Of a stretch of 64,000 nucleotides of DNA, positions 15,980 through 64,000 are shown in pieces. Origin of the DNA: Candidatus Norongarragalina meridionalis (GTDB taxonomy: Archaea > Micrarchaeota > Micrarchaeia > Norongarragalinales > Norongarragalinaceae); the NCBI GenBank assembly GCA_902384935.1, contig CABMDO010000009.1, forward strand, positions 74,983 to 138,982, read 5' to 3'. Under the pieces are notes generated by a model. That model was given only the letters and a program-made list of their open reading frames with translations, did no database searches and was not told where the DNA came from. The position numbers were made by a program, and so were the translations under genes. Each line of letters starts with the position of its first letter. Position 1 is the stretch's first letter.

Positions 15980-16004
15980 ATTTTCGGACGTTCCTGATTT
16001 TTCC

Positions 16005-17012
16005 ATGGAAGCGAGGCGGCCGTTCGGCAAAATGGAAAAAATGCTGAACAGCCCCCAGAACGCGGTAACGAATAGGGTTGCCGAGCTCATTCTTCAAAAA
16101 AGGGGCAAACCGCTTACTGAAAACCAGTCCGCGGCGCTGAAGAAAGCAATAGCCGGGATTTTCTCCGGAGCCGCGGTGCAGGCCGAGGAATTCCACAGGA
16201 AAAGCCCCGACGATTACGCCACGTTCAACCGGCACAGGAAATTCGTAATCGAGGGGGTGCGCGGCTACCTGCGCAAGAACAGCATCGCCAGTTTAGACCG
16301 CGTGCCCGCCAAGTGGGAGCTGCCGTATGCATCGCCATGGAAGCAGCCGAAGAAAAGCGGTGACGCCGCCGTCGATAAAACCGAACCCGAGGAACCCGCC
16401 AAGCACGAACTTGAGACGCTTCCGAAACCGCCCGAACGGGACGAGTCCGTTTTCCTCGAAAAGGTGCAGGAAGCCGCCGCGAAGAGGAACCCGAAACGCG
16501 TCGGAAGAACCGCGGTTACGATGGCTGCGATCGCAGCGACTGCCATCATGGGCGGAACGAAACCGGCAACCGGACACGCGACGTCGGAGAAAATCGCAAT
16601 CGCTGCCGAACTGCCGAACGCACCCGCAGAACTTCCGAAAACCGCCGTGCCTGAAAAACTTTCGATGGAAGCGCTGGCGTTCGAAGCCAAACTTTCGGGG
16701 GCGGAAACCAAAAATCTCGTGAAAACCCAGAATCCGAACATCGCACTGGCGATTTCGAAGTACAACGCCGCAACCGAGGCGCAGGACAGGGGAGACGGGG
16801 AAACCGCCAGGGCGCTCCTGATAGAAGCCCAGATACAGGCGGAAGCTGCGGCGATGGGTAGCGGTGAAGTGGCAATGAGCGAAAAGCAGGACAGGGAGTA
16901 CAGGAAAGCGCTGAACGCCGGCAAAACCGCCGAACGCCTCGGAAGGCATTATGCCATAACCGCGGCGGACCAGATGAAATCCCTGATAGCGAAAAGGCTG
17001 TCGCGGCTATAG
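16005..17012 (+). CDS. hypothetical protein with single TM segment
   Basis: 335 aa, charged with low-complexity stretches and one hydrophobic helix (TAVTMAAIAATAIMGG). No known domain. Confidence 0.4.
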   Translation: MEARRPFGKMEKMLNSPQNAVTNRVAELILQKRGKPLTENQSAALKKAIAGIFSGAAVQAEEFHRKSPDDYATFNRHRKFVIEGVRGYLRKNSIASLDRVPAKWELPYASPWKQPKKSGDAAVDKTEPEEPAKHELETLPKPPERDESVFLEKVQEAAAKRNPKRVGRTAVTMAAIAATAIMGGTKPATGHATSEKIAIAAELPNAPAELPKTAVPEKLSMEALAFEAKLSGAETKNLVKTQNPNIALAISKYNAATEAQDRGDGETARALLIEAQIQAEAAAMGSGEVAMSEKQDREYRKALNAGKTAERLGRHYAITAADQMKSLIAKRLSRL

Positions 17013-17053
17013 CGCCGCCCGCGTTGCGTGGAATTTAATAACCAGAAGTCCCC

Positions 17054-18190
17054 ATGTTTTTCTTGATGAAAGTGAAACCGGGACTTCGGAAGAGTATGGA
17101 AAGGGAGTTCCGCAACGAGGACCGGAAGCTCGAACGGGCTCAAAGCTTCATGGACGAGCCGCTGACGCGCAAAAGGATCGGAGAGCTCTTGGGAAAACCC
17201 CGGGGCGCCATCGGGAACGCCGAACTTTCCCAGAAGGAGCAGGACAGGGTGCTAGACGAAATACTCACCCAAAAGAGAACCGACGCGTTCATGGAAAAGC
17301 TCGGGAGGATTGCGGGGCAGAGCCTGACGACTTCGCGCGCGTTCTACGTCAGAAGGTTCTATTACAACAAAATCAAGCCCGCGGTATACAACGCGCAGAA
17401 GGAACACGGACTCAGCCTCGAAGAAACCGAGAAACTTCTCGATGCCATTGAAAACAGGGCCGCGGAATCGCACGCCAGGCAGTGGAAAGCCGGAAGAATC
17501 CAAAGCATGGGGTGGGCGCTGCGCAACAAATTCCGCAGGAAAACTCCCGAAGAGAAGCGCGACCGCACGTACCAAAAGCTGATGGCGAAAGCGGAAAGGA
17601 AAAACAAGGGTATGATCCGCGACAGCGCTGCCGCCGACATCACCAAGGTTATTCCTAGCCAGAAAAAAGCGCCTGAACCGAAAAAGGGAAAGACGCCGGG
17701 AAGATTCCGGAGATGGGTTACCGCACTTGCCGCAGTGGCGACGCTCGGGCTGGCTTCGCCTTCGGCGCCGGTTGAACAACAGCGCGAAACGCCAAAAACC
17801 GCGATGACGACGCAGGCGAAGCCCGCCGCAGAGAAGGTTCCGGACCGGAATTTGGAAAAGGGAAAAGGCGTTGTGCGCAGGTACGAGGACCTGGACTATC
17901 AGGCGCGACGCACGAACAACCAGACGCTCAGGGACGCGATAAGAGCGTACCAGTACGGCAACTATTCGAACGCGCGGACGCTTGCGCAGCACGTCACCAA
18001 AACCGGGCACATGCAGCTGAGCGATAAGGAAAAAGCGACGCTGAGTTCGGAGGCGGCGACGGGAAGGATACTGGGCGGCGGGGCGCGCGGCTCGAACGCG
18101 GAAATATCCGAAACCGCTTCCGACGAGGACATGGCGGTTGCGGCGATGCTCGTCCAGAAAAGCACGAACGCGATGGCGGAAAAGCGCTAG
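17054..18190 (+). CDS. hypothetical protein with single TM segment
   Basis: 378 aa, highly charged (K/R/E rich) with one hydrophobic helix (WVTALAAVATLGLA). No known domain. Confidence 0.4.
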   Translation: MFFLMKVKPGLRKSMEREFRNEDRKLERAQSFMDEPLTRKRIGELLGKPRGAIGNAELSQKEQDRVLDEILTQKRTDAFMEKLGRIAGQSLTTSRAFYVRRFYYNKIKPAVYNAQKEHGLSLEETEKLLDAIENRAAESHARQWKAGRIQSMGWALRNKFRRKTPEEKRDRTYQKLMAKAERKNKGMIRDSAAADITKVIPSQKKAPEPKKGKTPGRFRRWVTALAAVATLGLASPSAPVEQQRETPKTAMTTQAKPAAEKVPDRNLEKGKGVVRRYEDLDYQARRTNNQTLRDAIRAYQYGNYSNARTLAQHVTKTGHMQLSDKEKATLSSEAATGRILGGGARGSNAEISETASDEDMAVAAMLVQKSTNAMAEKR

Positions 18191-28908: not shown

Positions 28909-29172
28909 ATGTCCAGAATCTCCGAAAAGAATTTCCTTCGCGTAGCGGAGCAGGCGCTCCACGCGCTCTACGAGCGCTTCCCCGAACCCTTGAGCACCGC
29001 GGCGCTTGCGCAGGAAATAGCCCGCGACAACGAGTTCTGCCTGCGCGTGCTGGAATTCCTGGAAAAAAAGGGAATGGCGAAGAGGACGGGCAACCTCGCG
29101 CACCTTAAGCTCTGGACAATCACGCCCGCCGCCCGCAAGAAATACGATTCGGCATTACAGCAGCGCGGCTAA
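28909..29172 (+). CDS. hypothetical winged-helix protein
   Basis: 87 aa. LSTAALAQEIARDNEFCLRVLEFLEKKGMAKR resembles a wHTH. Confidence 0.35.
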   Translation: MSRISEKNFLRVAEQALHALYERFPEPLSTAALAQEIARDNEFCLRVLEFLEKKGMAKRTGNLAHLKLWTITPAARKKYDSALQQRG

Positions 29173-29535
29173 CTCCATGCCGGTATCGTAATCCGACTCC
29201 AGCAGCGAGAAGCCGCGCGGATTCTCGCGGAAAATCGTGAGCGGAAAGAAGCGCCATTCCCTGCGAGGTTTGCGCCACGCCACGTAAACGGGCATATTCG
29301 TCGCTGCCTGCCACTCCTGCATTATCTTGAACTTCGTCGTTTCGAGATGCGGCGCCTTGCGCCACGCCTTGCATTCGAGGGCGAACTTTTTAGTTGCGCC
29401 GAGGACGACCAAGTCGGGTGACACGCCGTCCACGCCGCTTCCGGACGCACGGACGACTCGGTAGCCATGCCCTTTTAATTCCGCGGACAGCAGTCGCTCC
29501 TGGTGCGCGCCCTTGTTGTACCGTCCGTTGCCCAT
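29155..29535 (-). CDS. hjc: Holliday junction resolvase Hjc
   Basis: GAHQERLLSAELKGHGYRVVRASGSG...DLVV...ECKA matches Hjc catalytic motifs. Start taken at MGNGRYNKG. Confidence 0.75.
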   Translation of the reverse strand: MGNGRYNKGAHQERLLSAELKGHGYRVVRASGSGVDGVSPDLVVLGATKKFALECKAWRKAPHLETTKFKIMQEWQAATNMPVYVAWRKPRREWRFFPLTIFRENPRGFSLLESDYDTGMELAALL

Positions 29536-30049
29536 GGAGGAAAAAAAGGCGCGGTTATTTAAAGCGCCTTTCCTCAGGGGTAATTGGTGATTGAGGATGG
29601 CTCCTGCGAGATTGCGCGTACGCTCTGTTCGTGGCCATGTAGTTATCATACCGCACCCGTTTAGAAAAGGAAGCCACATACTAGTGAGATTTCAACGAAA
29701 AACGTCTAATAGCGGAATGCTTCTTGCGTGGTCCCCCCGCGAAATTTATGGCGAATCACGCGGTAGCGCGTTTGGTAATGTTACAAAAGAAATTCCAAGG
29801 GGGCATGCGGCCGTTATTAGCGAAGGTAAGACTAGTGTCTACAAGCCGTTCAAACCCGCAGAAGAAGCTAAAATCCGACGTGCTTTGTATCGAAACCGCC
29901 CTGCAGGGTGGTCATTTCTGAAAGCGGGCGTCTCGCGTCGAAAAAACGAACTGAAAAAACGAAAATTGTTGGATGAACCGCTGAAAGGGCGTTATCCGGG
30001 TCCCAAAGCAATGAAACCGATAATTGCCTAAGGAAACGCTTATCGTCCA

Positions 30050-30704: not shown

Positions 30705-31136
30705 ATGGACCCTCTTCGTAAGAAACAGGAAATCGGCAAGGTTTTCCATGCCTTGGATTCCACCGCGATACTAGTGGAAGGAAAGCGCGACGAAGCCGCG
30801 CTGCGTGCGGCGGGCGTAACTGCGCCCATAGTGCTCGCAGCCGGACGGAAAGCCGAACGTGTCGCCGAGGAAGCGCAGGCATTCGGGCTTCCTCTCGCGC
30901 TGCTCTTCGACTGGGATGTGGAAGGAGAAAGAAAAACAAGGGAATATGAGGAGTTGATGAAGGCGGACATCCGCCTCAGGAAAAAGATGAAGGTGTTGTT
31001 GGGTTTGAGGACGGTTGAGGAACTGGGTTTCCGGCTGTCCGAGCTTGAGAGAAAGGTGAATGAAAATGGGAAAGACTTACATAGATACGGTAAAGTACCT
31101 GGTAAAGGCGAACTTCGAGATAGACGGCATCGTTGA
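30705..31136 (+). CDS. small Toprim-domain protein (tentative)
   Basis: ILVEGKRDEAALRAAG...LLFDWDVEG resembles a minimal Toprim fold. The 3' end overlaps the dnaG start in another frame. Confidence 0.35.
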   Translation: MDPLRKKQEIGKVFHALDSTAILVEGKRDEAALRAAGVTAPIVLAAGRKAERVAEEAQAFGLPLALLFDWDVEGERKTREYEELMKADIRLRKKMKVLLGLRTVEELGFRLSELERKVNENGKDLHRYGKVPGKGELRDRRHR

Positions 31137-32367
31137 GAAGCCGGACATAGTCGGAGCGGTTTTCGGCCAGACGGAAGGTTTGCTCGGCGACGAGCTGGAT
31201 TTGCGCGAGTTGCAGAAGAACGGACGCATAGGGAGAATAGAAGTCGACGCGCAGGTGCGCAGCGGCAGGAGCTTCGGCACTATTCTCGTGCCGTCGAGCC
31301 TGGACATGGTGGAAACCAGCATCCTCGCGGCGGCTCTCGAGATTGTGGACCGCGTAGGTCCGTGCGAGGCGCGCATAACCGTCGAGAAAATAGAGGACAC
31401 GCGCAATCTTAAGAGAAAGCAGGTGCTGGACCGCGCGAAGGTTCTGCTCCGCTCGATGCTTACGAACGAGATTCCCGAAAGCAAGGAACTCAGCGATCTG
31501 GTGCGCGACGACGCGAAGGTGGCGGACGTAGGGACGTACGGCGTGGACAAGCTGCCCGCAGGCCCCGCTGTTGCCACGAGTGAAGCGATCATAGTCGTCG
31601 AAGGCAGGGCCGACGTAATCAACCTGCTGAAGAACGGCATCAAGAACGTCGTGGCAATCGGCGGAGCGAAAGTCGGGAAAACGGTCGCCGAACTCGGCAA
31701 GGAGAAGGAACTCACCGTGTTCCTCGACGGGGATCGCGGCGGGGACATCATCCTGAAGGAACTGGTTGAAGCCACCGACGTGGATTACGTGTGCCGCGCG
31801 CCTCCCGGAAAGGAAGTGGAGGAGCTTGCACGCAAGGAACTCATAAAATGCCTGCGCCGCAGGACGCCCATAGAGCAGGTCGTGGGATACGAGCACCTCG
31901 CGAAGGAGCGCGCGTCCCAGCCTGTTGAAAAATATCCCGAGAAGAGCGAGCGTCAGGATCGCGCAGATCGCGGAGTCCGCGAGGAACCGCGTCCGCAACC
32001 GCAGCAGCGCTTCGAAAGGGACGAATCTACCATCGAGCTGAGCGCGCCGGTCCCTCCCGTAAAGGAGGAAACTCCCGAGGAACGCGAGAAAAGCGAGACG
32101 CTTCGGAAGAGCCTTAAGGATTTGGAGGGCTCGTTGAAAGCTAGGTTGCTCGACAAAAGCGGGAACACCATGAGCGAGGTAATGATCCGCGAAATCATGA
32201 AGACGCTCGGGGAAACCGACGGCGTATGGGCGGTCGTGCTCGACGGAATCGTCACGCAGCGGCTCGTCGACTTGGCGGAGCAGAAGGGCGCGGAGTACGT
32301 CGTGGGAATACGCTCGGGCAACGTGACGCGCCGTCCCGCGGCGCTACGCATAGTGCTCGCGGAGTGA
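31060..32367 (+). CDS. dnaG: archaeal DNA primase DnaG (Toprim)
   Basis: N-terminus KYLVKANFEIDGIVEKPDIVGAVFGQTEGLLGDELDLRELQKNGRIGRIEV is archaeal DnaG. Toprim block IIVVEGRADVINL...FLDGDRGG. Confidence 0.85.
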   Translation: MKMGKTYIDTVKYLVKANFEIDGIVEKPDIVGAVFGQTEGLLGDELDLRELQKNGRIGRIEVDAQVRSGRSFGTILVPSSLDMVETSILAAALEIVDRVGPCEARITVEKIEDTRNLKRKQVLDRAKVLLRSMLTNEIPESKELSDLVRDDAKVADVGTYGVDKLPAGPAVATSEAIIVVEGRADVINLLKNGIKNVVAIGGAKVGKTVAELGKEKELTVFLDGDRGGDIILKELVEATDVDYVCRAPPGKEVEELARKELIKCLRRRTPIEQVVGYEHLAKERASQPVEKYPEKSERQDRADRGVREEPRPQPQQRFERDESTIELSAPVPPVKEETPEEREKSETLRKSLKDLEGSLKARLLDKSGNTMSEVMIREIMKTLGETDGVWAVVLDGIVTQRLVDLAEQKGAEYVVGIRSGNVTRRPAALRIVLAE

Positions 32368-32423: not shown

Positions 32424-33188
32424 ATGGGCACGTCGCTAGTATTCGCATCTGGCAAGGGCGGGGTAGGCAAGACGCAGACCGTGATCAACCTCGGAACCGC
32501 GCTTGCACAGCACGGGCACAACGTCACCATAGTCGAGGGCAACCTCATCACGCCCAACCTCGCGATTTATTTCGGCATTCCGCTCCACGCGAAGACGCTC
32601 AACGACATCATCCGCGGCGACGCGAGCATAGACGAGGCGACGTACGTCCACGAGGAAACCGGACTGCTCCTCATACCCGCGAACATACAGCTGCATGCGC
32701 ACAACGACATCTCGTCGCGCGCCCTGCGCAATACAATCCGCGACATCAAGAAGCACACGGATACCGTAATCGTCGATTGCGTTTCGAGCCTCGGCGACGA
32801 GGTAAGCGAAATCATAAAGTCCGCGGACAAGGCGGTAATAGTCACGAATCCCGAGCTTCCCGCAATGGCGGACGCCTACAAGACGATCCGCCTTACAAGG
32901 CACCTCGGAACGCAGGTCGCGGGCGTCGTCGTGACGCGCACCGGGCGCTTCAAGGGCGAACTGTCGGACGACGAAATCAACACGCTTCTCGAAGGCACGC
33001 AGGTTATCGGGAAAATCCCCGAGGACCATCGCGTGCCCATGGCGTCGTCGCGTTCGGAACCCGTCGTGCTCGCATACCCGCACTCCCGCGCGTCGCGCGC
33101 CTACAAGAGGCTCGCGTCGTCGATGCTCGGAAAAGAATACAGCGAGTTCGGGTTCGCGGAAGACGTGCTCAATAGCCTGCAGCCCTGA
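32424..33188 (+). CDS. minD: MinD/ParA-family P-loop ATPase
   Basis: Deviant Walker A SGKGGVGKT. 254 aa, MinD-like throughout. Confidence 0.75.
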   Translation: MGTSLVFASGKGGVGKTQTVINLGTALAQHGHNVTIVEGNLITPNLAIYFGIPLHAKTLNDIIRGDASIDEATYVHEETGLLLIPANIQLHAHNDISSRALRNTIRDIKKHTDTVIVDCVSSLGDEVSEIIKSADKAVIVTNPELPAMADAYKTIRLTRHLGTQVAGVVVTRTGRFKGELSDDEINTLLEGTQVIGKIPEDHRVPMASSRSEPVVLAYPHSRASRAYKRLASSMLGKEYSEFGFAEDVLNSLQP

Positions 33189-34752
33189 ATGCGCGCCGCA
33201 TTTTCGCAAGCACTTCTCCCGGGCTAGCGCCTAACACGAATATGGTCGCCTCTTTCCCGAACGCGCCCTTGTCGTATATAACGTCGGAAACGCCGCCGTG
33301 TTTTTTCACCGCCTGCAAGGCAAGCCAGGGCATCGACGCGCCTTCCGCAGACGCGACGGACTCGGGCTCCTCCTCGCTCCGCGATACTTCGGCGACGCTC
33401 ATGTTCGAACGCACGAACGCATCGAGCAACTGAGGAGAATATGCCACGTCAAGAGCCGAGCGCACGCCTTGCTTGGAAAGCGCTATGACTACGCCCGCGA
33501 CGTGGTGCGACGCTCCGTAAGCGGCGGCTCCGCGGAGCACGCGATTGATCCCGCGCCTCATCCGTCCCTCTATTGCGGCGACTTCCTTCGGTGACTTCGC
33601 TCCGGGTTTCGCGAAAACGAGATTCGACCCGATTTCGGGTATGCTTTCAAGAAAGCCGGCAGTGGCGCAAAGCGCAGCCGCAACATCTTCCACTTCGGTA
33701 AGCAGCGCATCGTTCCCTCCGGCCTGCTTCTTCAGATACTCCTCGAACGCTATCCAGAACGGGTCCGTGCCGGGATGCAGCGTCCTTTTTCCGTCAACGA
33801 ACAGGCCGCGCTTCTTCATTACTCGGCCTACGACGCTCGCCGGAATGTCCGCTTTTTTCAGCGCCTTTACGGTTGCCTCGCCTTCTCCCTTCCGCACGGT
33901 CGCAAGAAGCGTTCCTTCGCTGATGGCGATGAACGGATCGATTCCGAAGCATTCGCACGTTTTCGCAACCGCGTCCTGGACTATTACTTCTTCCTTTTCG
34001 ACGTCCATTCCGTATTTCAGGCACAGCTCGGACAATCCGCCCCATACTCCGCACTCCGTAGCGTCGTGCATCGCGGTTGCGGCGCCTGTTTTCGCCACCA
34101 CGGCTGCATCCTTCACGACGCTCATCTGGTAGAAAACCGACTGCGCCTTTTTCACGAGCTGTTTTCCGCAGCTGGCTTCGAGGAATTCGGGAAACTGGAC
34201 GGACATCAATCCGGTCGTCTCTATCGCCGGGCCTTTCGTCACTATTACTTCGTCGCCGGGGCGCATCGCCGAACGATCTACGAGTTTTTTCCGCGAACCG
34301 ACGCCGAACATCACGCCTCCGCCGACCATCGGATAGTTGCACCCCGCGTATCGTGCGGTATGCCCCGTAACAACGTTTACGCCCAGCTTCTTGCACTCGG
34401 AATCAACCGTTCGCCAGATGCGCTTCAGCACGTCGGCGGTTGTTTCGGGCGGAAGATTCAGGTCAACCGCGAAATAGCGCGGCGGGATTCCGCTTACTGC
34501 GACGTCGGAAGCGAGTATATGCACCGCGAACCACGCCGCCCGCTCCCAGCCAAGCGACGGGGAGATGAAGAACGGATCCGCGGAAAGCACAACCGCGTTG
34601 TTCCCGCATTCGAACGCCCCGAAATCCACGCCGTTTGTGGGCGGAACTATCACCGACTTGTCCTTGGCGCCGAGATGCGGATAAATCACCTTTCGGAAGA
34701 ATTCCGGCGGGATTTTCCCCAAAGAAGGAAGCTCGTCCATGCTAAACACCAA
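33169..34752 (-). CDS. AIR-synthase-related (PurM-like) protein fused to ThiN-like thiamine-phosphate synthase domain
   Basis: N-terminal PurM/HypE-like fold and a C-terminal ~180 aa resembling ThiN. Adjacent to thiL and thiC. Confidence 0.45.
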   Translation of the reverse strand: MVFSMDELPSLGKIPPEFFRKVIYPHLGAKDKSVIVPPTNGVDFGAFECGNNAVVLSADPFFISPSLGWERAAWFAVHILASDVAVSGIPPRYFAVDLNLPPETTADVLKRIWRTVDSECKKLGVNVVTGHTARYAGCNYPMVGGGVMFGVGSRKKLVDRSAMRPGDEVIVTKGPAIETTGLMSVQFPEFLEASCGKQLVKKAQSVFYQMSVVKDAAVVAKTGAATAMHDATECGVWGGLSELCLKYGMDVEKEEVIVQDAVAKTCECFGIDPFIAISEGTLLATVRKGEGEATVKALKKADIPASVVGRVMKKRGLFVDGKRTLHPGTDPFWIAFEEYLKKQAGGNDALLTEVEDVAAALCATAGFLESIPEIGSNLVFAKPGAKSPKEVAAIEGRMRRGINRVLRGAAAYGASHHVAGVVIALSKQGVRSALDVAYSPQLLDAFVRSNMSVAEVSRSEEEPESVASAEGASMPWLALQAVKKHGGVSDVIYDKGAFGKEATIFVLGASPGEVLAKMRRAFRAAGY

Positions 34753-34823
34753 CGCATTAATAACCGCTTTCAGTAATTCTGTAGGAACGCATTTATAGGT
34801 TTGCGACTTCGGCAGGCAGCGAT

Positions 34824-35711
34824 ATGCTCTCTGAACGCGACATCATTGACGTCATAAAGCGCAGCCTCGGCGCGCCTTCTTCGTTCGAGGACGCGGAGGA
34901 GCTGAAAGGCGGCGCCGTCTGCACGACCGACATGGTACTGGACTTCGACGACTTTCCGAAGGGCACGAAACCCTACTACAAAGGATGGACTGCTGTTTGC
35001 TCCTCGGTAAGCGACCTTGCGGCGGCAGGAGCGAAACCGCTTGGCGTCGTAGCGTCGTGGGCGATACCTAGAAGGATGGGGAGGCGCGAAATCGCCGAAA
35101 TAGCGAGAGGAATGCGCGACTGCGCGAAGGCGGCGAAAACCCGCGTCATCGGCGGGGACGTGAACGAAAGCGAACGCCTGATCTTATGCACCGCGGCGGC
35201 GGGGGATAAAAGGCGCGCATCAAGGAGCGGAGCAAAACCGGGCGACATTATTGCGGTAACTGGCAGGCTGGGAGCGAGCGCGGCTGGCTGGCTGGCTTTG
35301 AAAAAGGGACTGCGCGGGCATACGGCGGTAAAAAACAAATTCATGAAACCTCCAGTGCGCATAAACGAAATGCAGAAGATAGTCGGGTACGTCGATGCGG
35401 CTACGGACTTGAGCGACGGATTGCTAATCGGAATTTATAACATATGCGAGGAAAGCAGATGCGGAGCCGAAATAACGGGCGTGCCGATTGACAACGGCGT
35501 CGAAGCGGTTGCCCGCGCGCTCAGAAAAACTCCGTTCGATTTGGCGTGCATCGGTTCGGACTACGAACTGCTGCTGGCGATACCGAAGCAGAAGATAGCG
35601 GAAGCGAAAAAAAGGACGCGGCTGTACGAAATAGGCGTTTTTACCAAAGGAAAAGGCGTGCGCATGAACGGGAAGGTTCTGCAGCGCAGGGGATTCCAGC
35701 ATTTCCAGTGA
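34824..35711 (+). CDS. thiL: thiamine-monophosphate kinase
   Basis: PurM-superfamily ThiL pattern (CTTDMVLD, GWTAVCSSVSDLAAAGAKPLG, ATDLSDGL). Confidence 0.7.
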   Translation: MLSERDIIDVIKRSLGAPSSFEDAEELKGGAVCTTDMVLDFDDFPKGTKPYYKGWTAVCSSVSDLAAAGAKPLGVVASWAIPRRMGRREIAEIARGMRDCAKAAKTRVIGGDVNESERLILCTAAAGDKRRASRSGAKPGDIIAVTGRLGASAAGWLALKKGLRGHTAVKNKFMKPPVRINEMQKIVGYVDAATDLSDGLLIGIYNICEESRCGAEITGVPIDNGVEAVARALRKTPFDLACIGSDYELLLAIPKQKIAEAKKRTRLYEIGVFTKGKGVRMNGKVLQRRGFQHFQ

Positions 35712-35721
35712 GAGTGAAGAA

Positions 35722-36909
35722 ATGGAAACCAAACCGCTAGCAAGGAAGGAAGGAGTTAGCGAAAGCTTTTTGCGGAACGGCATTGCTTCCGGCAGCATCG
35801 TTGCGCTCGGAAACTGCGCAGTAGGTGCGGGCTTGCGCACTAAGACGAACGCCAACCTCGGATGCTCCGAAGGATTCTCCTCGTTGAAAACCGAGATGGA
35901 GAAGGCGGAAATCGCGGTGAAATACGGCGCCGACGCGCTGATGGATTTGAGTGTGGTCGACGTCGGGTTGCGCGCCAGATTGAAAAAATTCGGCGTGCCC
36001 GTAGGAACCGTTCCCGTTTACGACACGTTCGCGAAGAAGAATCCCGACGCCGACGACTTCTTCGGCGCGGTTGAGCGCCACTGCAAGGACGTGGACTTCG
36101 TAACGGTGCACTGCGGCGTCACAAGGAGCACGAGCGCGCTTGCAATGAAACGCCTAATCGGCATCGTCAGCAGGGGAGGGGCGCTCACTTCCCTTTGGAT
36201 GGCTAAGACCAAGCAGGAAAACCCGTTTTACGCGGAGTTCGACTATTTGCTGGAGATTCTAAAGGACAGCGGCGTCGCGCTCAGCCTCGGCGACGCTCTG
36301 CGGCCGGGTGCGCAGGCGGATGCCGACGACGCCGCGCAGGAGGCGGAACTTCGCATCAACGGCGCGCTTGTCAAGAGAGCGAGGAGAGCGGGGGTTGCCA
36401 TTTTCGTGGAAGGGCCGGGGCACATGCCGCTCGACAAAATCGCGCCGCACGTGAAGCACATGAAAAAGGTGTGCGGAAACGCGCCCTACTACGTGTTGGG
36501 GCCGCTTGTCACCGATTTGGGCGCGGGGCACGACCACATAACCGCCGCAATAGGCGGGGCGGTTGCGGGCGCCGCAGGCGCGGACTTCCTCTGTTATGTG
36601 ACGCCTTCGGAGCATCTTTCTTTCCCCGACAAGGAGGACGTGCGCGAGGGAGTCATTGCGGCGAGAATTGCGGCGCATGCGGCGGACATAGCGAAAGGCG
36701 TTCCGAACGCCCGCACACAGGACGACAGATTGTCGAAAGCGAGGGCGAATCTTGACTGGAAGACACAGTTCGCGCTCTCCTTCGACACGGACGCGTGCGT
36801 GCGCTATCGCAGGTCGCGACCTCCCGCGTGCGGGAACGTCTGCAGCATGTGCGGCGAGTTTTGCGCCGTGAAGGCTTTTCGGGAATCGAAGAAGGAGGCG
36901 GGAAAATGA
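35722..36909 (+). CDS. thiC: phosphomethylpyrimidine synthase
   Basis: Short archaeal ThiC with conserved blocks and the C-terminal CSMCGEFCA Fe-S cluster motif. Confidence 0.8.
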   Translation: METKPLARKEGVSESFLRNGIASGSIVALGNCAVGAGLRTKTNANLGCSEGFSSLKTEMEKAEIAVKYGADALMDLSVVDVGLRARLKKFGVPVGTVPVYDTFAKKNPDADDFFGAVERHCKDVDFVTVHCGVTRSTSALAMKRLIGIVSRGGALTSLWMAKTKQENPFYAEFDYLLEILKDSGVALSLGDALRPGAQADADDAAQEAELRINGALVKRARRAGVAIFVEGPGHMPLDKIAPHVKHMKKVCGNAPYYVLGPLVTDLGAGHDHITAAIGGAVAGAAGADFLCYVTPSEHLSFPDKEDVREGVIAARIAAHAADIAKGVPNARTQDDRLSKARANLDWKTQFALSFDTDACVRYRRSRPPACGNVCSMCGEFCAVKAFRESKKEAGK

Positions 36910-37217
36910 AAGGATACATGAAAATGGTGCACAGGCACAACCACGTCGCCTATGCCGGCATTCTGCCGCAGGGACTTGCGGTGGTGCATCTCAACCGCAA
37001 GCTTGCGCCTTCGGACATCACGTCCGCGGCGAAGTCGCTCGGACTGAAGGTTTCACAGCATCCGCCGAAGCGCAGCAGGCGGGTTGACGTGCGCGACTCG
37101 CGGGGCAACCTCGTTGCAACCGTTGTCGGCAACGACCTCGCGCTCCTGCCCGGCCATCCGAAGAACATGGAGCTTACCAAGGATTTCGTGAACGCGCTGC
37201 TCAAGGGGAAGCGTTAA
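36906..37217 (+). CDS. hypothetical protein
   Basis: 103-aa ORF whose ATG overlaps the thiC stop (ATGA). Confidence 0.3.
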   Translation: MKGYMKMVHRHNHVAYAGILPQGLAVVHLNRKLAPSDITSAAKSLGLKVSQHPPKRSRRVDVRDSRGNLVATVVGNDLALLPGHPKNMELTKDFVNALLKGKR

Positions 37218-37241: not shown

Positions 37242-38669
37242 GTGAAATTCAAGACAACCGCCGACATCCCCGTGCCTTCGGACCCGCTCGAGCAGGTAAT
37301 AGGGCAGGACGAGGCGGTTCGGGTTGCCAAGACGGCGTGCAGCCAGCGCCGGCATCTTCTCCTGGTAGGACCGCCGGGAATCGGCAAGAGCATGATAGCG
37401 CAGGCCATTGCGTACCGTTTGCCGAAACCCACGGAAGAGATAAGCGTCCTGCACAACCCCGAAAACCCCGAACGCCCCACGATCGAGGTGCGGAGTTCCA
37501 CGGAAATAGAGAAGGAGCGCAAACTCGTGAAAGCGGCGGAAGCTGCGAAACTCATCGACCCTTCGGAAGCGCCCGCCATGGTTGCGGAGCGCCTCGGCTT
37601 CAGGTGCAGGTTCTGCGGTTCGCCTTCGAAACACTCCGAACGCGCCTGCCCGAGCTGCGGACGCGAGAAAACCGACATGTTCTCGCCATATCCGAACATA
37701 TTCATCGGTGCGCGCCCCCAGGCATCGCCCGAACGCGTGCACACTACGCGAATCACCGACGGCGAGCGCGAGGAGGTGGTCATATACGAACGCACGGGCG
37801 AGAAAATCCGCGTGCTCGACCAGTCGGTTCTCGAGAAAATCGACGCGATAAAGCGCAAACTCCCGCGCCGCGTGATCGTCCCGCTTGAAAGGAAGACTTT
37901 CGTGACCGCATCTGGAGCGAGCGAGACGGAATTGCTGGGCGACGTGCGGCACGATCCGTACGGGGGGCACGCGCAGGTCGGAACTCTTCCGTACATGCGC
38001 GTCGTTCCGGGCGCGATACACGAAGCGCACCAGGGCGTCCTGTTCATAGACGAGTTGAGCGCGCTCGCTTACGTCCAGCGCTTCCTGCTGACTGCCATGC
38101 AGGAGAAGAAATTTCCGATTGTAGGGAGGAACCCGCAGAGCGCGGGCGCGTCGGTGCGCGTCGAGGAAGTGCCCTGCGACTTCGTGCTTGCGGCGGCATC
38201 GAACATAAACGACCTGAAGATGATCCTTCCGCCCTTGCGCTCGCGCATAGTCGGCAACGGCTACGAACTGCTTCTTGAAACGACTATGCCGGACACTCCT
38301 GCGAACCAGGAAAAGGTTGCCCGTTTCGTTGCGCAGGAAATCCGCAAGGACGGCAAGATTCCGCACGCTTCCGCCGCGGCTGTCGAACGCTTGATCGACG
38401 AGGCGCGCAAAAAAGCGAAGGAATTCGACAACACGGACAACGCGCTTTCATTGCGCTTCCGCGAACTCAGCGGCATAGTGCGGCTCGCTGGGGACAACGC
38501 CATAGGGAACGGCGAGAAAACAATCGAGGAAGGCAACGTGGAGGACGCGGCGCGCCGCGGACGCTCCATCGAACAGCAGTTGCGCGACAAATACGGCTCG
38601 CTCTGGAAAGCAGGGGAAAGCGAGAACGTCAGCGCGCCGAAGGACGCGAAGCGCAGCGAAATCAGCTAA
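37242..38669 (+). CDS. LonB-like AAA+ ATPase lacking protease domain, with Zn-ribbon insert
   Basis: LonB N-terminus (VIGQDEAVRV, LLLVGPPGIGKSM), Walker B VLFIDELS, GDVRHDPYGG. CRFCGSPS...CPSCGRE replaces the LonB TM hairpin. The ORF ends without a Ser-Lys protease domain. Confidence 0.6.
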   Translation: MKFKTTADIPVPSDPLEQVIGQDEAVRVAKTACSQRRHLLLVGPPGIGKSMIAQAIAYRLPKPTEEISVLHNPENPERPTIEVRSSTEIEKERKLVKAAEAAKLIDPSEAPAMVAERLGFRCRFCGSPSKHSERACPSCGREKTDMFSPYPNIFIGARPQASPERVHTTRITDGEREEVVIYERTGEKIRVLDQSVLEKIDAIKRKLPRRVIVPLERKTFVTASGASETELLGDVRHDPYGGHAQVGTLPYMRVVPGAIHEAHQGVLFIDELSALAYVQRFLLTAMQEKKFPIVGRNPQSAGASVRVEEVPCDFVLAAASNINDLKMILPPLRSRIVGNGYELLLETTMPDTPANQEKVARFVAQEIRKDGKIPHASAAAVERLIDEARKKAKEFDNTDNALSLRFRELSGIVRLAGDNAIGNGEKTIEEGNVEDAARRGRSIEQQLRDKYGSLWKAGESENVSAPKDAKRSEIS

Positions 38670-39184
38670 TCCTTGCTAGACAGATAGGTAGTTCTTTTTG
38701 TATCGTATATTGCAGAATTATCTTTAAACTTATGTCCGGATACGCCCACGGGCTTGGACCTAATTTGGGGGCGACAGTCATGATTATCTGAATGAAAATG
38801 CAAATGACATAAAATCTTGTGGCATAGAGGACATGCGGTTTTTTCAAATGCGTTAAGTTTCTTTTTACAAACGGAACATACGCCGTAGGTTTTCTGACGT
38901 TTCCTTGGTTTAGAGATAAGTTCCGGAGCAGAATGCACTTCGTGGAGGCGGTGCTCCGTACAGAAAAGTCCGTGACAGAATGAACATTTGAAGCCGCAGG
39001 TACCTCCAGCAGACGCGCCACAATATTCACAAATAGGCGCGCTATATTTTGCGGAGAAAACAGCAGATTTTGCAGGGGCTATGAAGTATTTTTCTAAAAA
39101 GCCCCGGTGATCTATAGAAACGACTCGATTATTCGACTGATGTTCTAACCCCAATCTGAGCTTAAGCCATCTCCAAAAGCCCAT
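38666..39184 (-). CDS. tandem AN1-type zinc-finger protein
   Basis: Two AN1 fingers: CEYCGASAGGTCGFKCSFCHGLFCTEHRLHEVH and CSVCKKKLNAFEKTACPLCHKILCHLHFHSDNHDC. Lies in an AT-rich (~42% GC) segment. Confidence 0.6.
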   Translation of the reverse strand: MGFWRWLKLRLGLEHQSNNRVVSIDHRGFLEKYFIAPAKSAVFSAKYSAPICEYCGASAGGTCGFKCSFCHGLFCTEHRLHEVHSAPELISKPRKRQKTYGVCSVCKKKLNAFEKTACPLCHKILCHLHFHSDNHDCRPQIRSKPVGVSGHKFKDNSAIYDTKRTTYLSSKD

Positions 39185-40623: not shown

Positions 40624-41607
40624 ATGGCGAAGCGCAGGGCTGCGAAGCCGACGTTAAAAGCAAGAACCACCGCGGACCTAGCGGTGCCTACGCGGCTCGT
40701 CGACCAGGTGATCGGGCAGGAGAAGAGCGTCGACATCATAAAGAAAGCCGCGAAGCAGAAGCGCCACGTAATGCTCGTGGGCACGCCCGGCACTGGAAAG
40801 AGCATGCTCGCGCAGGCGATGGCGGAGCTACTGCCCGCGGAGAAGCTCGAGGACATACTTATCGAGGAGAATCCGGAAAACGAGAACATCCCGCGCGCGA
40901 AAACCGTGAAAGCGGGCGAGGGAAGGAAAATCGTCGACGAAATGCGCATGAAAACGCAGCTCGGCGGCAAGGACATGAACATCGTCTACGTGTTCTTCAT
41001 TTTCATCGCGTCGTTTTTCCTGCTCGCATACGGCAGGCAGCAGCTCGGCGACGTCATAACCGCCGCGATGCTCATCGGCCTGTTTCTCGTAGGCGGGGTG
41101 ATGATGCTCGGCTCGCAGCTGTCGCGCGGAAGGGCTGGCGCGGGTTACGAGTCGGTGAAGCTGCTAGTTGACAATTCCGGAAAAACAATAGCGCCGTTCA
41201 TCGACGCTACGGGCGCGCGCGCAGGAGCGCTGCTCGGCGACGTGAAGCACGACCCCTTCCAATCGTTCGACGGCGGAACTGTTGTTGACGGCGCGGACGA
41301 AAGCATGGAGAACCTCTGGAAGAAGATGGCTAGGAAACACGCCGCATTGATTGAGCGGAACGAGGAGGGGTACGAGGCAATAGTCCTGCCGAAGAACGAG
41401 CGCGTTTACGCGTACGGTTTGAAGGCGGGGCGCATAGTGCGCAGCAGAATCCGCATAATCAACCGCCGCCCGTACCGCGGAAAAGTAGTGCGCGTGAAAG
41501 CGGGCAGGCGCGCCATCACCACCACGCCGGAGCACGGATTCTATTCGAAACCTAAGAAAACCGCGAATTCCCTGCGCAAGGGGACGCCGCTCGTCGTAAG
41601 GAGGTAA
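40624..41607 (+). CDS. LonB N-terminal fragment (Walker A + TM hairpin) fused to intein N-fragment-like Hint module
   Basis: Aligns to LonB through LLGDVKHDPFQ, then diverges into ~114 aa: SFDGGTVVDG (intein block A-like with Ser1) ... AITTTPEHGFY (block B TxxH). Ends with no Walker B or protease domain. Confidence 0.5.
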   Translation: MAKRRAAKPTLKARTTADLAVPTRLVDQVIGQEKSVDIIKKAAKQKRHVMLVGTPGTGKSMLAQAMAELLPAEKLEDILIEENPENENIPRAKTVKAGEGRKIVDEMRMKTQLGGKDMNIVYVFFIFIASFFLLAYGRQQLGDVITAAMLIGLFLVGGVMMLGSQLSRGRAGAGYESVKLLVDNSGKTIAPFIDATGARAGALLGDVKHDPFQSFDGGTVVDGADESMENLWKKMARKHAALIERNEEGYEAIVLPKNERVYAYGLKAGRIVRSRIRIINRRPYRGKVVRVKAGRRAITTTPEHGFYSKPKKTANSLRKGTPLVVRR

Positions 41608-61925: not shown

Positions 61926-61962
61926 GCGGAACGGATTAATAAGCGGTTTGCGTAATACTTAC

Positions 61963-62240
61963 GGGGACGGCGGGTTGCACGGCTGTCGGTATCCTCCCGT
62001 CAAACGGAGGAGGCTGAGGAAGTTCCGCCCACCATTTGCGAGAGCAAAGTGTTAGATGCGCAAGCATCCCCGTCTAAGACGGGAGCGTGGAACAGAAACG
62101 AACCGCGCCGAGAGCAGGATGACGAACAGGACGTTTCTCGGAATGCGGATGAAACGCGCCGCGCTTGGTGCAAGTGCTTTACGCACGCTAAGTCGAATGC
62201 CGTGGACAACAGAAGGCGGGCTACGGACTCGCCGTCCCAC
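61963..62240 (+). ncRNA. rnpB: probable RNase P RNA (archaeal type A)
   Basis: ~278 nt between CDSs. Ends pair (GGGGACGGCG/CGCCGTCCC, P1), P3-like hairpin CCUCCCgucaaaCGGAGG. AGGAAGUUCCGCCCACC resembles the CR-I/P4 5' strand AGGAAAGUCCGGGCUCC. ACAGAAGGCGGGCUACGG resembles the P4 3' strand ACAGAAnnCGGCUUA. CCGCCC/GGCGGG can form P4. Confidence 0.55.
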
Positions 62241-62270
62241 TCATATTTTAATAGCGGAAGCGTTCTTTCT

Positions 62271-64000
62271 GCATGGCGCCCGACTCGATGCTCGCCGGGC
62301 GAGCATCCAACAAGGACGAGCTGCGTAAGGAATTCTCGAAGGAGTACAGGCAGCACTACGAGGTTCCGCTCTTCAAAAAGGAGGGTTTTTCGCGCTTCGT
62401 CTGCAAGAAATGCGGCAAGGGCTATTGGGCGCTTGAGGAAGGAGCGGACTGCGGCGATTCGTCGCACCGCGAATACTCGTTCTTCCGCGAGAAGCCGCGG
62501 CAGATGGGCTACGCCGAGTTCTGGAAGAAATTTGCCGACTTCTGGAAGAAGAATGGACACGAAGTCATACCGCGTTACCCCGTGCTGAGCAGGTGGCGCG
62601 ACGATTTGTATTTCACGATCGCGAGCATCGTCGACTTCCAGAGGCTTGAAGCGGGGCGAATCGTCTTCGAATATCCGACGAGCCCGCTGATGGTGCCGCA
62701 AATCTGCCTGCGCTTCCCCGACATCGCCAACATCGGCGTCACCGGAAGGCACATGTCGTGCTTCATGATGGCGGGGCAGCATTCTTTCGGAAAGGAGGGA
62801 TACTGGCGCGACAGGTGCTTGGAGCTTAACTACGGCTGCCTGAAGGACGTGCTCGGAATAGACAAGAAGAAGCTGACGTACACCGAGGACGTTTGGAACA
62901 TGCCGGACTTCAGCGCGTTCGGGCCGTGCATCGAGTCCTTCGCCGACGGCTCGGAGCTTGTGAACAGCGTATTCATGCAGTTCTATCTCGACGGAACGCA
63001 GAAGAAAGAGCTGCCGACGCGGGTAATCGACGTGGGCTGGGGTTTCGAACGGTTGCTGTGGTATTACACCGGCGCGCGGACGATATACGATGCGTCGTTC
63101 CCGAGGGAAATCGAATTCATGAAGAAGGGAGCGGGAGTGCACGACACCCCGCTTTTCTCCCGCTATGCCGCGCTCAGCGCCGGGCTTGACGTGGAATCGG
63201 TGCACGACCTGCGCGAGGAGCGCGAAAAAATCGCGAAGAAGCTCGGAATAACGCTGAAGGAGATGGAGGACACGATTGCGCCGACGCAGGGCATTTACGC
63301 TATCGCCGATCACTCGCGCACGCTGCTGTTCGCGCTTACCGACGGCGCGCTTCCTTCGAACACCGCGGGCGGCTATAATTTGCGCGTCCTCGCTCGCCGA
63401 GCGTTCTCGTTCATGGACGAGTACGGTTTTGATTTCGATCTGATGCGCATCATGGAGATGCACGCCGAGGATTTGGCGCCGCTTTTCCCGGAACTTTCCG
63501 AGGGCTTGGATTCGGCGCAGAGGATAATGGACGAGGAAAGGCGGAAATACGCGGAAAGCATGGTGAAGGCGAGGCGCATCGCGGGCGAAATAGTGGCGAA
63601 AGGCGGCGAGATAAACGCCGAAAAGATGGCGACGCTCTACGAGAGCAACGGCGTCACTCCGGAGATTCTCGAGAAAGCCGCGCTGCAGGCCGGAAAGCCC
63701 ATCCGCGTCTCGACGGATTTCTACGGGAAGCTGACGAACAAACACATCATGGAAAAGCAGGAGAAGGAAAAGGTGGAAATCGACGCACCGGCGACGGAAT
63801 TGCGCTACTACGAAACCGACAAGCTCGAAGGAGACGCCAAGATCGTCGCCGTCGGCAAGGACTGGGTTGCTCTTGACGGAACGCTCTTCTATCCGGAAGG
63901 CGGCGGGCAAACCGCGGATCACGGCTGGATAAACGACGCGGGCGTCAAAGACGCGCAGAAAAAAGGGGGAGTCGTCCTACATTATGTCGGGCAGCATTCG
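62271..64000 (+). CDS. alaS: alanine--tRNA ligase (archaeal type), 3' partial at window end
   Basis: Hand translation: MAPDSMLAGRASNKDELRKEF...RWRDDLYFTIASIVDFQ...GVTGRHMSCFMMAGQHSFG...WGFERLLWYY matches the archaeal AlaRS N-terminal catalytic domain. Open to the window end, hence absent from the ORF track. Confidence 0.75.

What the first reader, a model, noticed from the sequence alone, without database searches (positions are those of the whole stretch)
37242..38669. LonB-like AAA+ ATPase without protease domain, TM hairpin replaced by a zinc ribbon
The protein carries the LonB N-terminal and AAA+ modules (Walker A/B, GDVRHDP block) but terminates before any Ser-Lys protease domain. A CxxC...CxxC insert sits where LonB normally has its membrane anchor. 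This suggests a soluble Lon-derived unfoldase or regulator. It lies ~2 kb from the split-intein-like LonB fragment and next to an AN1 zinc-finger gene.
Basis: seen in the sequence. Interest (0 to 1): 0.5.

Follow-up and report, generated by a model that had tools for sequence, protein, structure and literature searches.

The report
Protease-less, zinc-ribbon Lon-like ATPase
This gene encodes a soluble relative of the archaeal membrane protease LonB that keeps the ATP-driven motor, has lost both the membrane anchor and the protease, and belongs to an old, widespread, unstudied archaeal family that may feed proteins to a separate protease such as the proteasome.

Summary
ORF 37242-38669 (+) encodes 475 aa with a complete LonB-type AAA+ module: Walker A/B, Tyr pore loop, sensor 1, Arg finger and sensor 2. 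It has no transmembrane segment and no Ser-Lys protease domain, and no such domain occurs anywhere in the window. A CxxC-10-CxxC zinc ribbon sits where LonB carries its membrane hairpin.

It is not a truncation or a one-off. More than 200 full-length relatives of about 440-520 aa have the same architecture. They occur in Micrarchaeota, Thermoplasmatota (T. acidophilum Q9HLX6, "Putative lon protease homolog"), Aciduliprofundum, Altiarchaeales, Korarchaeota and Thorarchaeota. I found no functional study.

Two features are new here. Outside Micrarchaeota, 114 of 115 members end in an HbYX-type motif (small or hydrophobic, Tyr/Phe, any residue), the docking signal of proteasomal ATPases. Micrarchaeota, including this protein (…SEIS), end in [E/D]-[I/V]-x instead. 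Also, dnaG lies directly upstream on the same strand in 40 of 41 non-Micrarchaeota loci; here it is 4.9 kb upstream.

My best reading is a ClpX-like soluble unfoldase that hands substrates to a separate peptidase, probably the 20S proteasome in relatives; the partner in Micrarchaeota is uncertain. The AN1 neighbour is not conserved.

The parts
37242..38669 (+). Gene for the 475-aa protease-less, zinc-ribbon LonB-like AAA+ ATPase (GTG start, TAA stop)
   Evidence: homologues start at the same MKFK.. position
37368..37391 (+). Walker A, GPPGIGKS (residues 43-50)
   Evidence: G46, G48, K49 and S50 invariant in 121 sequences
37551..37889 (+). Insertion between Walker A and B (residues ~104-216) in place of the LonB membrane anchor. 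It holds a short helix, the zinc ribbon, a flexible linker, a 3-stranded beta-meander and a helix.
37605..37658 (+). C4 zinc ribbon, CRFC-x10-CPSC (C122, C125, C136, C139)
   Evidence: some homologues carry precomputed zinc-ribbon Pfam hits (PF12172, PF13248)
37734..37751 (+). Conserved RVHTTR motif at the start of the beta-meander of the insert (residues 165-170)
   Evidence: R165 invariant in the 20-sequence alignment and nearly invariant (>=90%) in 121 sequences, T168 and T169 nearly invariant; function unknown
37938..37970 (+). Pore-loop-1 block, GDVRHDPYGGH (residues 233-243). Tyr240 aligns with the Phe of LonB 'DPFQS'.
   Evidence: HDP[YFW] present in 64 of 64 family proteins
38034..38054 (+). 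Walker B, GVLFIDE (residues 265-271)
38193..38267 (+). Sensor 1 (N321 in AASNIND) and the arginine-finger block LRSRIVGNGYE (R333/R335)
   Evidence: invariant N321, S334 and R335
38445..38474 (+). Sensor 2 region, LSLRFRELSG (R407 invariant)
38616..38666 (+). Low-confidence, variable C-terminal tail ending in the lineage-conserved terminal motif ...KRSEIS ([E/D]-[I/V]-x)
   Evidence: pLDDT 48-55; terminal motif statistics
36906..37217 (+). Small 103-aa ORF 24 nt upstream on the same strand, probably co-transcribed. It is conserved upstream of the ATPase in 8 Micrarchaeota loci. No family or structure match.
31060..32367 (+). Archaeal dnaG, the family's conserved upstream neighbour. Here it is displaced 4.9 kb by minD/parA-like and thiN/thiL/thiC genes.
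   Evidence: NF003108 E=3e-151

Best explanation
The gene encodes a soluble, catalytically competent AAA+ motor. By homology with LonB it is presumably a hexamer. It belongs to an ancient archaeal paralogue family of LonB, named 'Putative lon protease homolog' in Swiss-Prot (T. acidophilum Q9HLX6).

Shown: the LonB AAA+ core is complete. The membrane hairpin between Walker A and B is replaced by a C4 zinc ribbon plus a small beta-meander/helix module. The protease domain is absent. The protein ends in a flexible tail with a lineage-conserved terminal tripeptide.

Inferred mechanism: six zinc-ribbon modules crown the entry face of the ring and recognise substrates or adaptors, as the N-terminal zinc-binding domain does in ClpX. 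ATP hydrolysis drives the Tyr240 pore loops to unfold and thread polypeptides. In LonB the protease sits on the exit face; here the C-terminal tails project from that face and dock onto a separate, self-compartmentalised peptidase. In Thermoplasmatota, Altiarchaeales, Korarchaeota and Thorarchaeota relatives the tail ends in an HbYX-type motif, so there the most likely partner is the 20S proteasome. In Micrarchaeota, including this protein (…SEIS), the motif is [E/D]-[I/V]-x, so the partner is less certain.

My estimates: active soluble unfoldase or remodeller ~0.8; proteasome docking for the family ~0.4; proteasome docking for this protein ~0.25.
For: The LonB-type AAA+ module is complete, with all catalytic and pore-loop residues invariant or nearly so across 121 homologues and 64 locus-derived proteins. 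The AF2 model has pLDDT 88.5, and its best structural match is TonLonB 3k1j (E=8e-39). There is no TM segment and no protease domain in the gene, downstream of it or anywhere in the window. All ORFs recovered from the related loci stop 226-263 aa after the SETELLGD motif (three of these ORFs are cut by a contig end), too few residues for a ~200-aa protease domain. The zinc ribbon is invariant and persists in 37-48%-identical members from Korarchaeota, Thorarchaeota and Anstonellales. The C-terminus is conserved: 114 of 115 proteins in the Thermoplasmatota set and 43 of 43 non-Micrarchaeota locus proteins have a small or hydrophobic residue at -3 and Tyr/Phe at -2. That is exactly the HbYX assignment rule used by Forouzan et al. 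2012 (PMC3493965). About 0.93% of archaeal proteins carry the motif (PMC11475706). TM-bearing LonBs lack it. PAN is absent from Thermoplasmata and Korarchaeota (PMC3493965), two lineages that have this family. The tail is variable and modelled with low confidence, as docking tails are. In an NJ tree the zinc-ribbon, protease-less proteins separate from the TM-bearing LonBs, which cluster together.
Against: No biochemical datum exists for any member in the literature I could search. The window protein itself fails the HbYX rule, with E at -3 and I at -2. Only 4 of 102 proteins in the Micrarchaeota-dominated set pass it. Thorarchaeota have the family too, and I could not show that they lack PAN, so the link to PAN absence is only partial. 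The strongest genomic association is with dnaG, not with proteasome genes. Hexamer formation, zinc binding and the position of the insert on the ring are inferred from homology, not computed.
Confidence: 0.5

Rival explanations
1. It is a nucleic-acid-directed motor or RNP/DNA-protein remodeller that works with DnaG (the archaeal exosome cap or primase). On this reading the basic zinc ribbon binds RNA or DNA and the ring translocates nucleic acid or strips proteins from it, by analogy with RuvB, a member of the same HCLR clade, or with primase-helicase pairs.
For: dnaG lies at most 500 nt upstream on the same strand in 40 of 41 evaluable non-Micrarchaeota loci (median gap 74 nt) and in 10 of 28 Micrarchaeota loci. 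The linkage extends to Thorarchaeota, where the order is Toprim-OsmC-ATPase-Pelota. An hjc resolvase gene lies further upstream in ~52 loci. The zinc ribbon is Arg-rich (ERLGFRCRRCG consensus). RuvB, MCM and ComM appear among the weaker sequence and structure hits.
Against: The same weak RuvB/MCM/Mg-chelatase hits are given by the true LonB fragment in this window. The pore loop keeps the aromatic residue typical of polypeptide translocases (HDP[Y/F/W] in 64 of 64). The AAA+ region is about 46% identical to true LonB proteases. A conserved extreme C-terminal HbYX-type motif has no known role in nucleic-acid motors. The insert as a whole is not strongly basic (21 K+R against 18 D+E).
Confidence: 0.2
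2. It is a stand-alone chaperone, or a regulator or partner of the membrane LonB. For example, it might form mixed rings with LonB or hand substrates to it. In DPANN that LonB is encoded as a split, intein-bearing gene nearby.
For: It has the same AAA+ type as LonB. The LonB N-fragment lies 2 kb downstream here and in L002, L003 and L013, in the order ATPase, RNase Z, LonB-N.
Against: The adjacency is seen in only a few Micrarchaeota. It is absent in the Thermoplasmatota, Thorarchaeota and Anstonellales loci, where the family is equally conserved. This reading also does not explain the conserved terminal tripeptide.
Confidence: 0.12
3. It is a truncated or decaying lonB pseudogene, or an assembly artefact.
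For: On its own, the gene looks like a LonB cut short before the protease domain.
Against: More than 200 full-length homologues from several phyla share the same ends, insert and invariant catalytic residues. No protease remnant is found in any frame of the window.
Confidence: 0.01

Closest known systems
Archaeal LonB protease (TIGR00764; MEROPS S16.005; T. onnurineus LonB, PDB 3k1j/4zpx)
   Same: It shares the N-terminal helix and the whole AAA+ module with LonB: Walker A/B, the long GDVRHDP pore-loop-1 block, sensor 1, Arg finger and sensor 2. The AAA+ region is ~46% identical, and LonB is the best sequence and structure match. Like LonB, it has an insertion of more than 100 aa between Walker A and B.
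   Different: The insertion holds a C4 zinc ribbon plus a beta-meander instead of a TM hairpin. There is no Ser-Lys protease domain. The score falls below the TIGR00764 cutoff (356.6 against 516.6). In an NJ tree the family separates from the LonBs.
'Putative lon protease homolog' / 'Protease La homolog type 2' (T. acidophilum Q9HLX6, T. volcanium P58275, P. torridus Q6L1E9, A. boonei ADD09201)
   Same: The window protein is collinear over its full length with Thermoplasmatota-type members of this family (53-59% identity in related loci). It has the same length class, zinc ribbon, motifs and lack of a protease. It is a member of this catalogued but uncharacterised family.
   Different: Those members end in an HbYX-type tripeptide (SYE, IYN, GYQ) and lie directly downstream of dnaG. 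The window protein ends in SEIS, and its dnaG is 4.9 kb away.
ClpX
   Same: The two are alike in function only. Both are HCLR-clade AAA+ unfoldases with no protease of their own. ClpX has a C4 zinc-binding domain on the entry side for substrate and adaptor recognition and docks onto a separate peptidase ring. These ClpX properties are from my own knowledge, not tested here.
   Different: The zinc module here is an internal insertion, not N-terminal. There is no IGF loop. Docking would be through a C-terminal tail. It is not a ClpX homologue beyond the shared clade.
HbYX-bearing proteasomal ATPases (PAN, Cdc48/VAT, AMA)
   Same: Relatives outside Micrarchaeota carry a flexible tail ending in small/hydrophobic-Tyr/Phe-X, the rule used to predict proteasomal ATPases (PMC3493965). 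The family occurs in PAN-less Thermoplasmata and Korarchaeota.
   Different: Its AAA+ module is of the Lon type, not the classical AAA clade. Forouzan et al. surveyed classical AAA proteins, and the word Lon does not occur in the main text of their paper. The window protein lacks the motif. No binding data exist.
LonC (M. taiwanensis MtaLonC, PDB 4fw9)
   Same: It is the second-best structural match (E~1e-13 to 1e-14). It is also a Lon relative with a non-membrane insertion between Walker A and B.
   Different: LonC keeps the protease domain and has a degenerate, inactive ATPase (abstract listed). Here the situation is reversed: the ATPase motifs are intact and the protease is missing.

Membership tests
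LonB protease (TIGR00764 / MEROPS S16.005) | LonB-type AAA+ module (Walker A/B, pore-loop-1 block, sensor 1, Arg finger, sensor 2) | tested here: met
LonB protease (TIGR00764 / MEROPS S16.005) | Membrane-anchoring domain with a TM hairpin inserted between Walker A and B (definition in PMC9569914) | tested here: not met
   The maximum KD19 hydropathy is 1.25 and falls at Walker A. The insert holds a zinc ribbon instead.
LonB protease (TIGR00764 / MEROPS S16.005) | C-terminal B-type Ser-Lys protease domain | tested here: not met
   The profile match ends at position ~403 of 608. The 3k1j alignment ends at chain residue 386. tblastn with protease domains gives E>=1 across the window.
LonB protease (TIGR00764 / MEROPS S16.005) | Score at or above the curated TIGR00764 cutoff (516.6 bits) | tested here: not met
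   356.6 bits
Protease-less zinc-ribbon LonB paralogues ('Putative lon protease homolog', Q9HLX6 family) | Protein of ~440-520 aa that ends shortly after the AAA+ alpha-subdomain, with full-length collinear homology to other members | tested here: met
   53-59% identity over residues ~3-470 to Thermoplasmatota, DHVE2 and Altiarchaeales loci; ORF ends compared; NJ clustering
Protease-less zinc-ribbon LonB paralogues ('Putative lon protease homolog', Q9HLX6 family) | CxxC-x10-CxxC zinc ribbon in the Walker A/B insertion | tested here: met
   C122, C125, C136 and C139; present in 64 of 64 and 121 of 121 sequences. Metal binding itself cannot be tested with these tools.
Protease-less zinc-ribbon LonB paralogues ('Putative lon protease homolog', Q9HLX6 family) | dnaG immediately upstream on the same strand | tested here: inconclusive
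   In the window dnaG is on the same strand but 4.9 kb upstream, separated by minD-like and thi genes. The arrangement holds in 40 of 41 other loci and 10 of 28 Micrarchaeota loci.
HbYX proteasomal ATPases (PAN/Cdc48/AMA type) | C-terminal HbYX (small or hydrophobic at -3, Tyr/Phe at -2; rule of PMC3493965) | tested here: not met
   The window protein ends in S-E-I-S. The feature is met in 114 of 115 Thermoplasmatota-set relatives and in only 4 of 102 of the Micrarchaeota-dominated set.
HbYX proteasomal ATPases (PAN/Cdc48/AMA type) | Classical-clade AAA domain | tested here: not met
   The PAN, Cdc48-type and PF00004 models match only the Walker A stretch (residues ~37-70), whereas the LonB model covers the whole module.
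HbYX proteasomal ATPases (PAN/Cdc48/AMA type) | Binds the 20S alpha-ring and opens the gate | not testable with these tools
   This needs biochemistry or complex modelling.
LonC | Degenerate ATPase motifs together with a retained protease domain | tested here: not met
   Walker A/B are intact and there is no protease domain.

The most novel reading that the evidence does not exclude
The Q9HLX6-type family, including this gene, is a previously unrecognised class of proteasome-activating unfoldase derived from Lon rather than from classical AAA proteins. It would recognise substrates through a zinc ribbon, dock on the 20S proteasome by an HbYX tail, and be genomically coupled to the exosome subunit DnaG. 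That would make a second exosome-proteasome link beside the known psmA-rrp superoperon. In Micrarchaeota the tail has been re-tuned to E-[I/V]-x, either for a changed alpha-ring pocket or for a different peptidase partner.
Probability: 0.3. Interest if true: 0.8.

Novelty: new variant of a known kind. Interest (0 to 1): 0.55.

Why it matters
Current classifications describe every Lon as a single chain that holds both an ATPase and a protease (PMC9569914). This family breaks that rule across several archaeal phyla, yet it has sat in databases as "putative lon protease homolog" or "ATP-binding protein" with no study that I could find. If the HbYX-type tail really docks on the 20S proteasome, archaea that lack PAN, notably Thermoplasma, the classic proteasome model organism, would have a second, Lon-derived gatekeeper beside Cdc48/VAT. 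The test is easy, because T. acidophilum 20S and Q9HLX6 are standard recombinant targets. The near-universal dnaG linkage also points to an unexplored connection between RNA or DNA metabolism and regulated proteolysis.

Tried and rejected
- **Truncation or pseudogene:** rejected, because architecture and ORF ends are conserved in the related loci and no protease remnant exists in the window.
- **Functional link to the AN1 zinc-finger neighbour:** rejected. tblastn with the AN1 protein finds no copy in any of 80 related loci.
- **Small upstream ORF (36906-37217):** no Pfam, NCBIfam or PDB-profile match.
- **Literature searches:** LonB+Micrarchaeota, a protease-less Lon in Thermoplasma, LonB+zinc ribbon, HbYX+LonB, Ta0098/Q9HLX6 and 'Lon-like ATPase' returned nothing on this family. 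Only open-access full text was searched.
- **Exact look-up of the window protein:** the encoding-contig collection has no record of it.
- **AFDB fold search:** the library was unavailable.
- **Cdc48/PAN or proteasome genes in the fetched Micrarchaeota loci:** I looked for them to compare C-termini. Only one Cdc48 turned up, in a DHVE2 locus, and it ends in YYS.
Full report
**The observation**

The ORF at 37242-38669 (+) is real: GTG start, 475 aa, TAA stop. A GAGGT ribosome-binding-like box lies 9 nt upstream. The window is archaeal, with an archaeal RNase P RNA at 61967-62235. The closest homologues are from Micrarchaeota, at 89-94% identity.

NCBIfam's LonB model TIGR00764 matches at E=2.7e-106. 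It covers only profile positions ~1-403 of 608 and scores below the curated cutoff (356.6 against 516.6 bits). The best solved relative is T. onnurineus LonB (3k1j, E=3.7e-88). It aligns in two blocks, query 2-103 and query 217-451, and the alignment ends before the protease domain.

All AAA+ motifs were located:
- Walker A, residues 43-50
- pore-loop block GDVRHDPYGGH, 233-243
- Walker B GVLFIDE, 265-271
- sensor 1, N321
- LRSRIVGNGYE, 332-342
- sensor 2, R407

The 113 residues between the two LonB-like blocks contain CRFC-x10-CPSC (122-139) and no hydrophobic segment. The maximum 19-residue hydropathy is 1.25, against 2.47 for the neighbouring LonB fragment. tblastn with three LonB protease domains finds nothing in any frame of the 64-kb window (E>=1).

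The convergent downstream gene (38666-39184, -) has two AN1 zinc fingers. The LonB N-fragment with an intein-N block starts 1955 nt downstream.

**A family, not an accident**

The first homology search returned 120 proteins of 462-545 aa at 54-94% identity, nearly all from Micrarchaeota or Norongarragalinales. In a 121-sequence alignment the four Cys, the Walker residues, N321, R335, R407 and much of the pore-loop block are invariant.

A scan of one genome per species found relatives in these lineages at 53-59% identity:
- Thermoplasmata
- Methanomassiliicoccales
- DHVE2 (Aciduliprofundum)
- Altiarchaeales
- E-plasma

In every related locus where the ORF could be read, it stops 226-263 aa after the SETELLGD motif. 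That leaves no room for a ~200-aa protease domain.

An exhaustive search of 50%-identity representatives shows about ten further full-length, collinear clusters at 37-59% identity. They come from Anstonellales, Korarchaeota, Thorarchaeota and unnamed sources, and all carry the zinc ribbon.

Cultured organisms have the protein too:
- T. acidophilum Q9HLX6/CAC11246 and T. volcanium P58275, both named 'Putative lon protease homolog'
- Picrophilus torridus Q6L1E9, 'Protease La homolog type 2'
- Aciduliprofundum boonei ADD09201

A rough NJ tree separates the zinc-ribbon, protease-less proteins from the TM-bearing LonBs, which cluster together. A protease-domain-based survey counted only one Lon in T. 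acidophilum (PMC2605481). That agrees with the paralogue lacking the protease domain.

Reviews define Lons as single chains with both domains, and LonB by its membrane anchor between Walker A and B (PMC9569914). This protein is therefore a LonB relative but not a LonB. Six literature searches found no study of the family.

**Structure**

AlphaFold2 with the 121-sequence alignment gives pLDDT 88.5. Foldseek ranks TonLonB first (E=8e-39) and MtaLonC second (~1e-14). MCM, ComM, RuvBL and sigma-54 activators follow at ~1e-7, which is typical for AAA+ modules of this kind.

**The C-terminal motif**

Reading the ends of the family proteins gave an unexpected regularity. All 43 complete non-Micrarchaeota proteins from the loci end with Tyr or Phe at the penultimate position, preceded by G, A, S or M: GYQ, GYR, GYE, GYG, MFH, AYH, SYQ and so on. 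In the larger Thermoplasmatota set 114 of 115 do so. T. acidophilum ends in SYE, Picrophilus in IYN and A. boonei in GYQ. The Korarchaeota member ends in YFA and the Thorarchaeota member in YFF.

This is exactly the operational definition of the HbYX proteasome-docking motif used by Forouzan et al. [quoted passage not shown] About 0.93% of archaeal proteins carry the motif (PMC11475706), and the TM-bearing LonBs lack it. Forouzan et al. surveyed classical AAA proteins, and the word Lon does not occur in the main text of either paper. They also report that PAN is absent from all Thermoplasmata and from Korarchaeota.

The Micrarchaeota members behave differently. All 21 from the loci, and 89 of 102 in the larger set, end in [E/D]-[I/V/L/Y/F]-x, typically KEIS or KEVS. 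Only 4 of 102 fit HbYX. The window protein ends in KRSEIS. The terminal tripeptide is therefore conserved in this lineage as well, but it is a different one.

**Genomic context**

Clustering the neighbours of 73 related loci showed an archaeal dnaG directly upstream on the same strand. It lies at most 500 nt away in 40 of 41 evaluable non-Micrarchaeota loci, with a median gap of 74 nt, and in 10 of 28 Micrarchaeota loci. In Thorarchaeota the order is Toprim-OsmC-ATPase-Pelota. Anstonellales lack the linkage.

In the window, dnaG (31060-32367; NF003108, E=3e-151) is 4.9 kb upstream. It is separated from the ATPase by a minD/parA-like gene and by thiN-, thiL- and thiC-like genes. An hjc resolvase gene lies further upstream, here at 29155-29679 (-).

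A 103-aa ORF (36906-37217) ends 24 nt before the ATPase start. It recurs upstream of the ATPase in eight Micrarchaeota loci and matches no known family or structure.

The AN1 gene is not found in any related locus. The order ATPase, RNase Z, split LonB-N recurs only in L002, L003 and L013.

**Interpretation**

Shown:
- an intact LonB-type ATPase with a conserved aromatic pore loop
- loss of the membrane anchor and the protease
- an invariant C4 zinc ribbon in the insertion
- a flexible tail with a lineage-conserved terminal motif
- deep conservation across archaeal phyla

Inferred: the protein forms a soluble hexameric unfoldase. The zinc-ribbon modules sit on the entry face, where LonB's membrane hairpins emerge. 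The C-terminal tails leave from the exit face, where LonB's protease is attached, which is the right geometry for docking on a separate peptidase. Functionally this resembles ClpX: a zinc-binding recognition domain, an HCLR-clade motor and a separate peptidase.

For the HbYX-bearing relatives the obvious candidate partner is the 20S proteasome. For this Micrarchaeota protein the partner of the E-I-x tail remains open.

The main rival is a role with DnaG in RNA or DNA metabolism. It rests on the very strong gene linkage and the Arg-rich zinc ribbon. It is weakened by the polypeptide-type pore loop and by the C-terminal motif. The two ideas are not exclusive. Genomic coupling of exosome and proteasome genes has a precedent in the archaeal psmA-rrp4-rrp41-rrp42 superoperon (my own knowledge; Koonin et al. 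2001).

**Verdict**

The gene is a new member of a catalogued but unstudied variant of the Lon family. That family's near-universal HbYX-type tail outside Micrarchaeota and its dnaG linkage appear not to have been noted before, and both are directly testable. I score interest at 0.55. The architecture will surprise few specialists, because Swiss-Prot has listed the homologues for years. The proteasome-docking prediction would be a real addition to archaeal proteostasis if it holds, but for now it rests on sequence evidence alone, and the window protein itself does not carry the motif.

Noticed in passing
window 40624-41607 (+): This ORF is a LonB N-terminal fragment: Walker A, TM hairpin and GDVKHDPFQ, followed by an intein-N-like block (TIGR01445, E=3e-5) and then a stop. 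ndk follows directly. More than 100 cluster-level relatives of 320-420 aa exist in Micrarchaeota, Diapherotrites and Iainarchaeota, so this looks like a DPANN-wide naturally split LonB. The C-terminal half (Walker B and protease) is not in this window.
   Followed up: partly
window 36906-37217 (+): A 103-aa ORF ends 24 nt upstream of the ATPase. It is conserved in the same position in 8 Micrarchaeota loci (L001, L002, L003, L005, L013, L015, L020 and the window). It has no Pfam, NCBIfam or PDB-profile match and could be a lineage-specific partner or adaptor.
   Followed up: partly
window 31060-32367 (+), 29155-29679 (-): dnaG and hjc form a conserved neighbourhood with the Lon-like ATPase across Thermoplasmatota, Altiarchaeales, Micrarchaeota and Thorarchaeota. 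In this genome a 4.9-kb block of minD/parA-like, thiN-fusion, thiL-like and thiC genes (32424-36909) has been inserted between dnaG and the ATPase.
   Followed up: yes
P0127, P0131 (metagenomic relatives, 442-443 aa): These are degenerate paralogues of the family. They keep the zinc ribbon and insert but have lost the Walker B Asp-Glu (GVLYISD, GALYLPD), the HDPY pore loop and the C-terminal tail. They may be inactive regulatory subunits.
   Followed up: no
window 38666-39184 (-): A 172-aa protein with two AN1-type zinc fingers converges on the ATPase gene and overlaps its stop codon. It is not conserved next to the ATPase in any of 80 related loci.
   Followed up: yes
window 6088-7803 (+): A 571-aa protein has PAS, GAF and GGDEF (diguanylate cyclase, E=2e-9) domains. 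I recall GGDEF signalling proteins being uncommon in archaea.
   Followed up: no
window 59688-61925 (+) and 62000-63922 (-): Two long ORFs of 745 and 640 aa have no Pfam match. The second overlaps the archaeal RNase P RNA gene (61967-62235, +) on the opposite strand, so its 3' part may not be coding.
   Followed up: no
window 16001-18000 and 60001-62000: These two stretches have unusually high AT skew (0.38 and 0.31) compared with the rest of the window.
   Followed up: no
L032 10146-12422 (-), a DHVE2 locus: A Cdc48-type double-AAA protein lies 3 kb from the Lon-like ATPase and ends in the canonical HbYX tripeptide YYS. The Lon-like ATPase of the same organism ends in GYQ.
   Followed up: no
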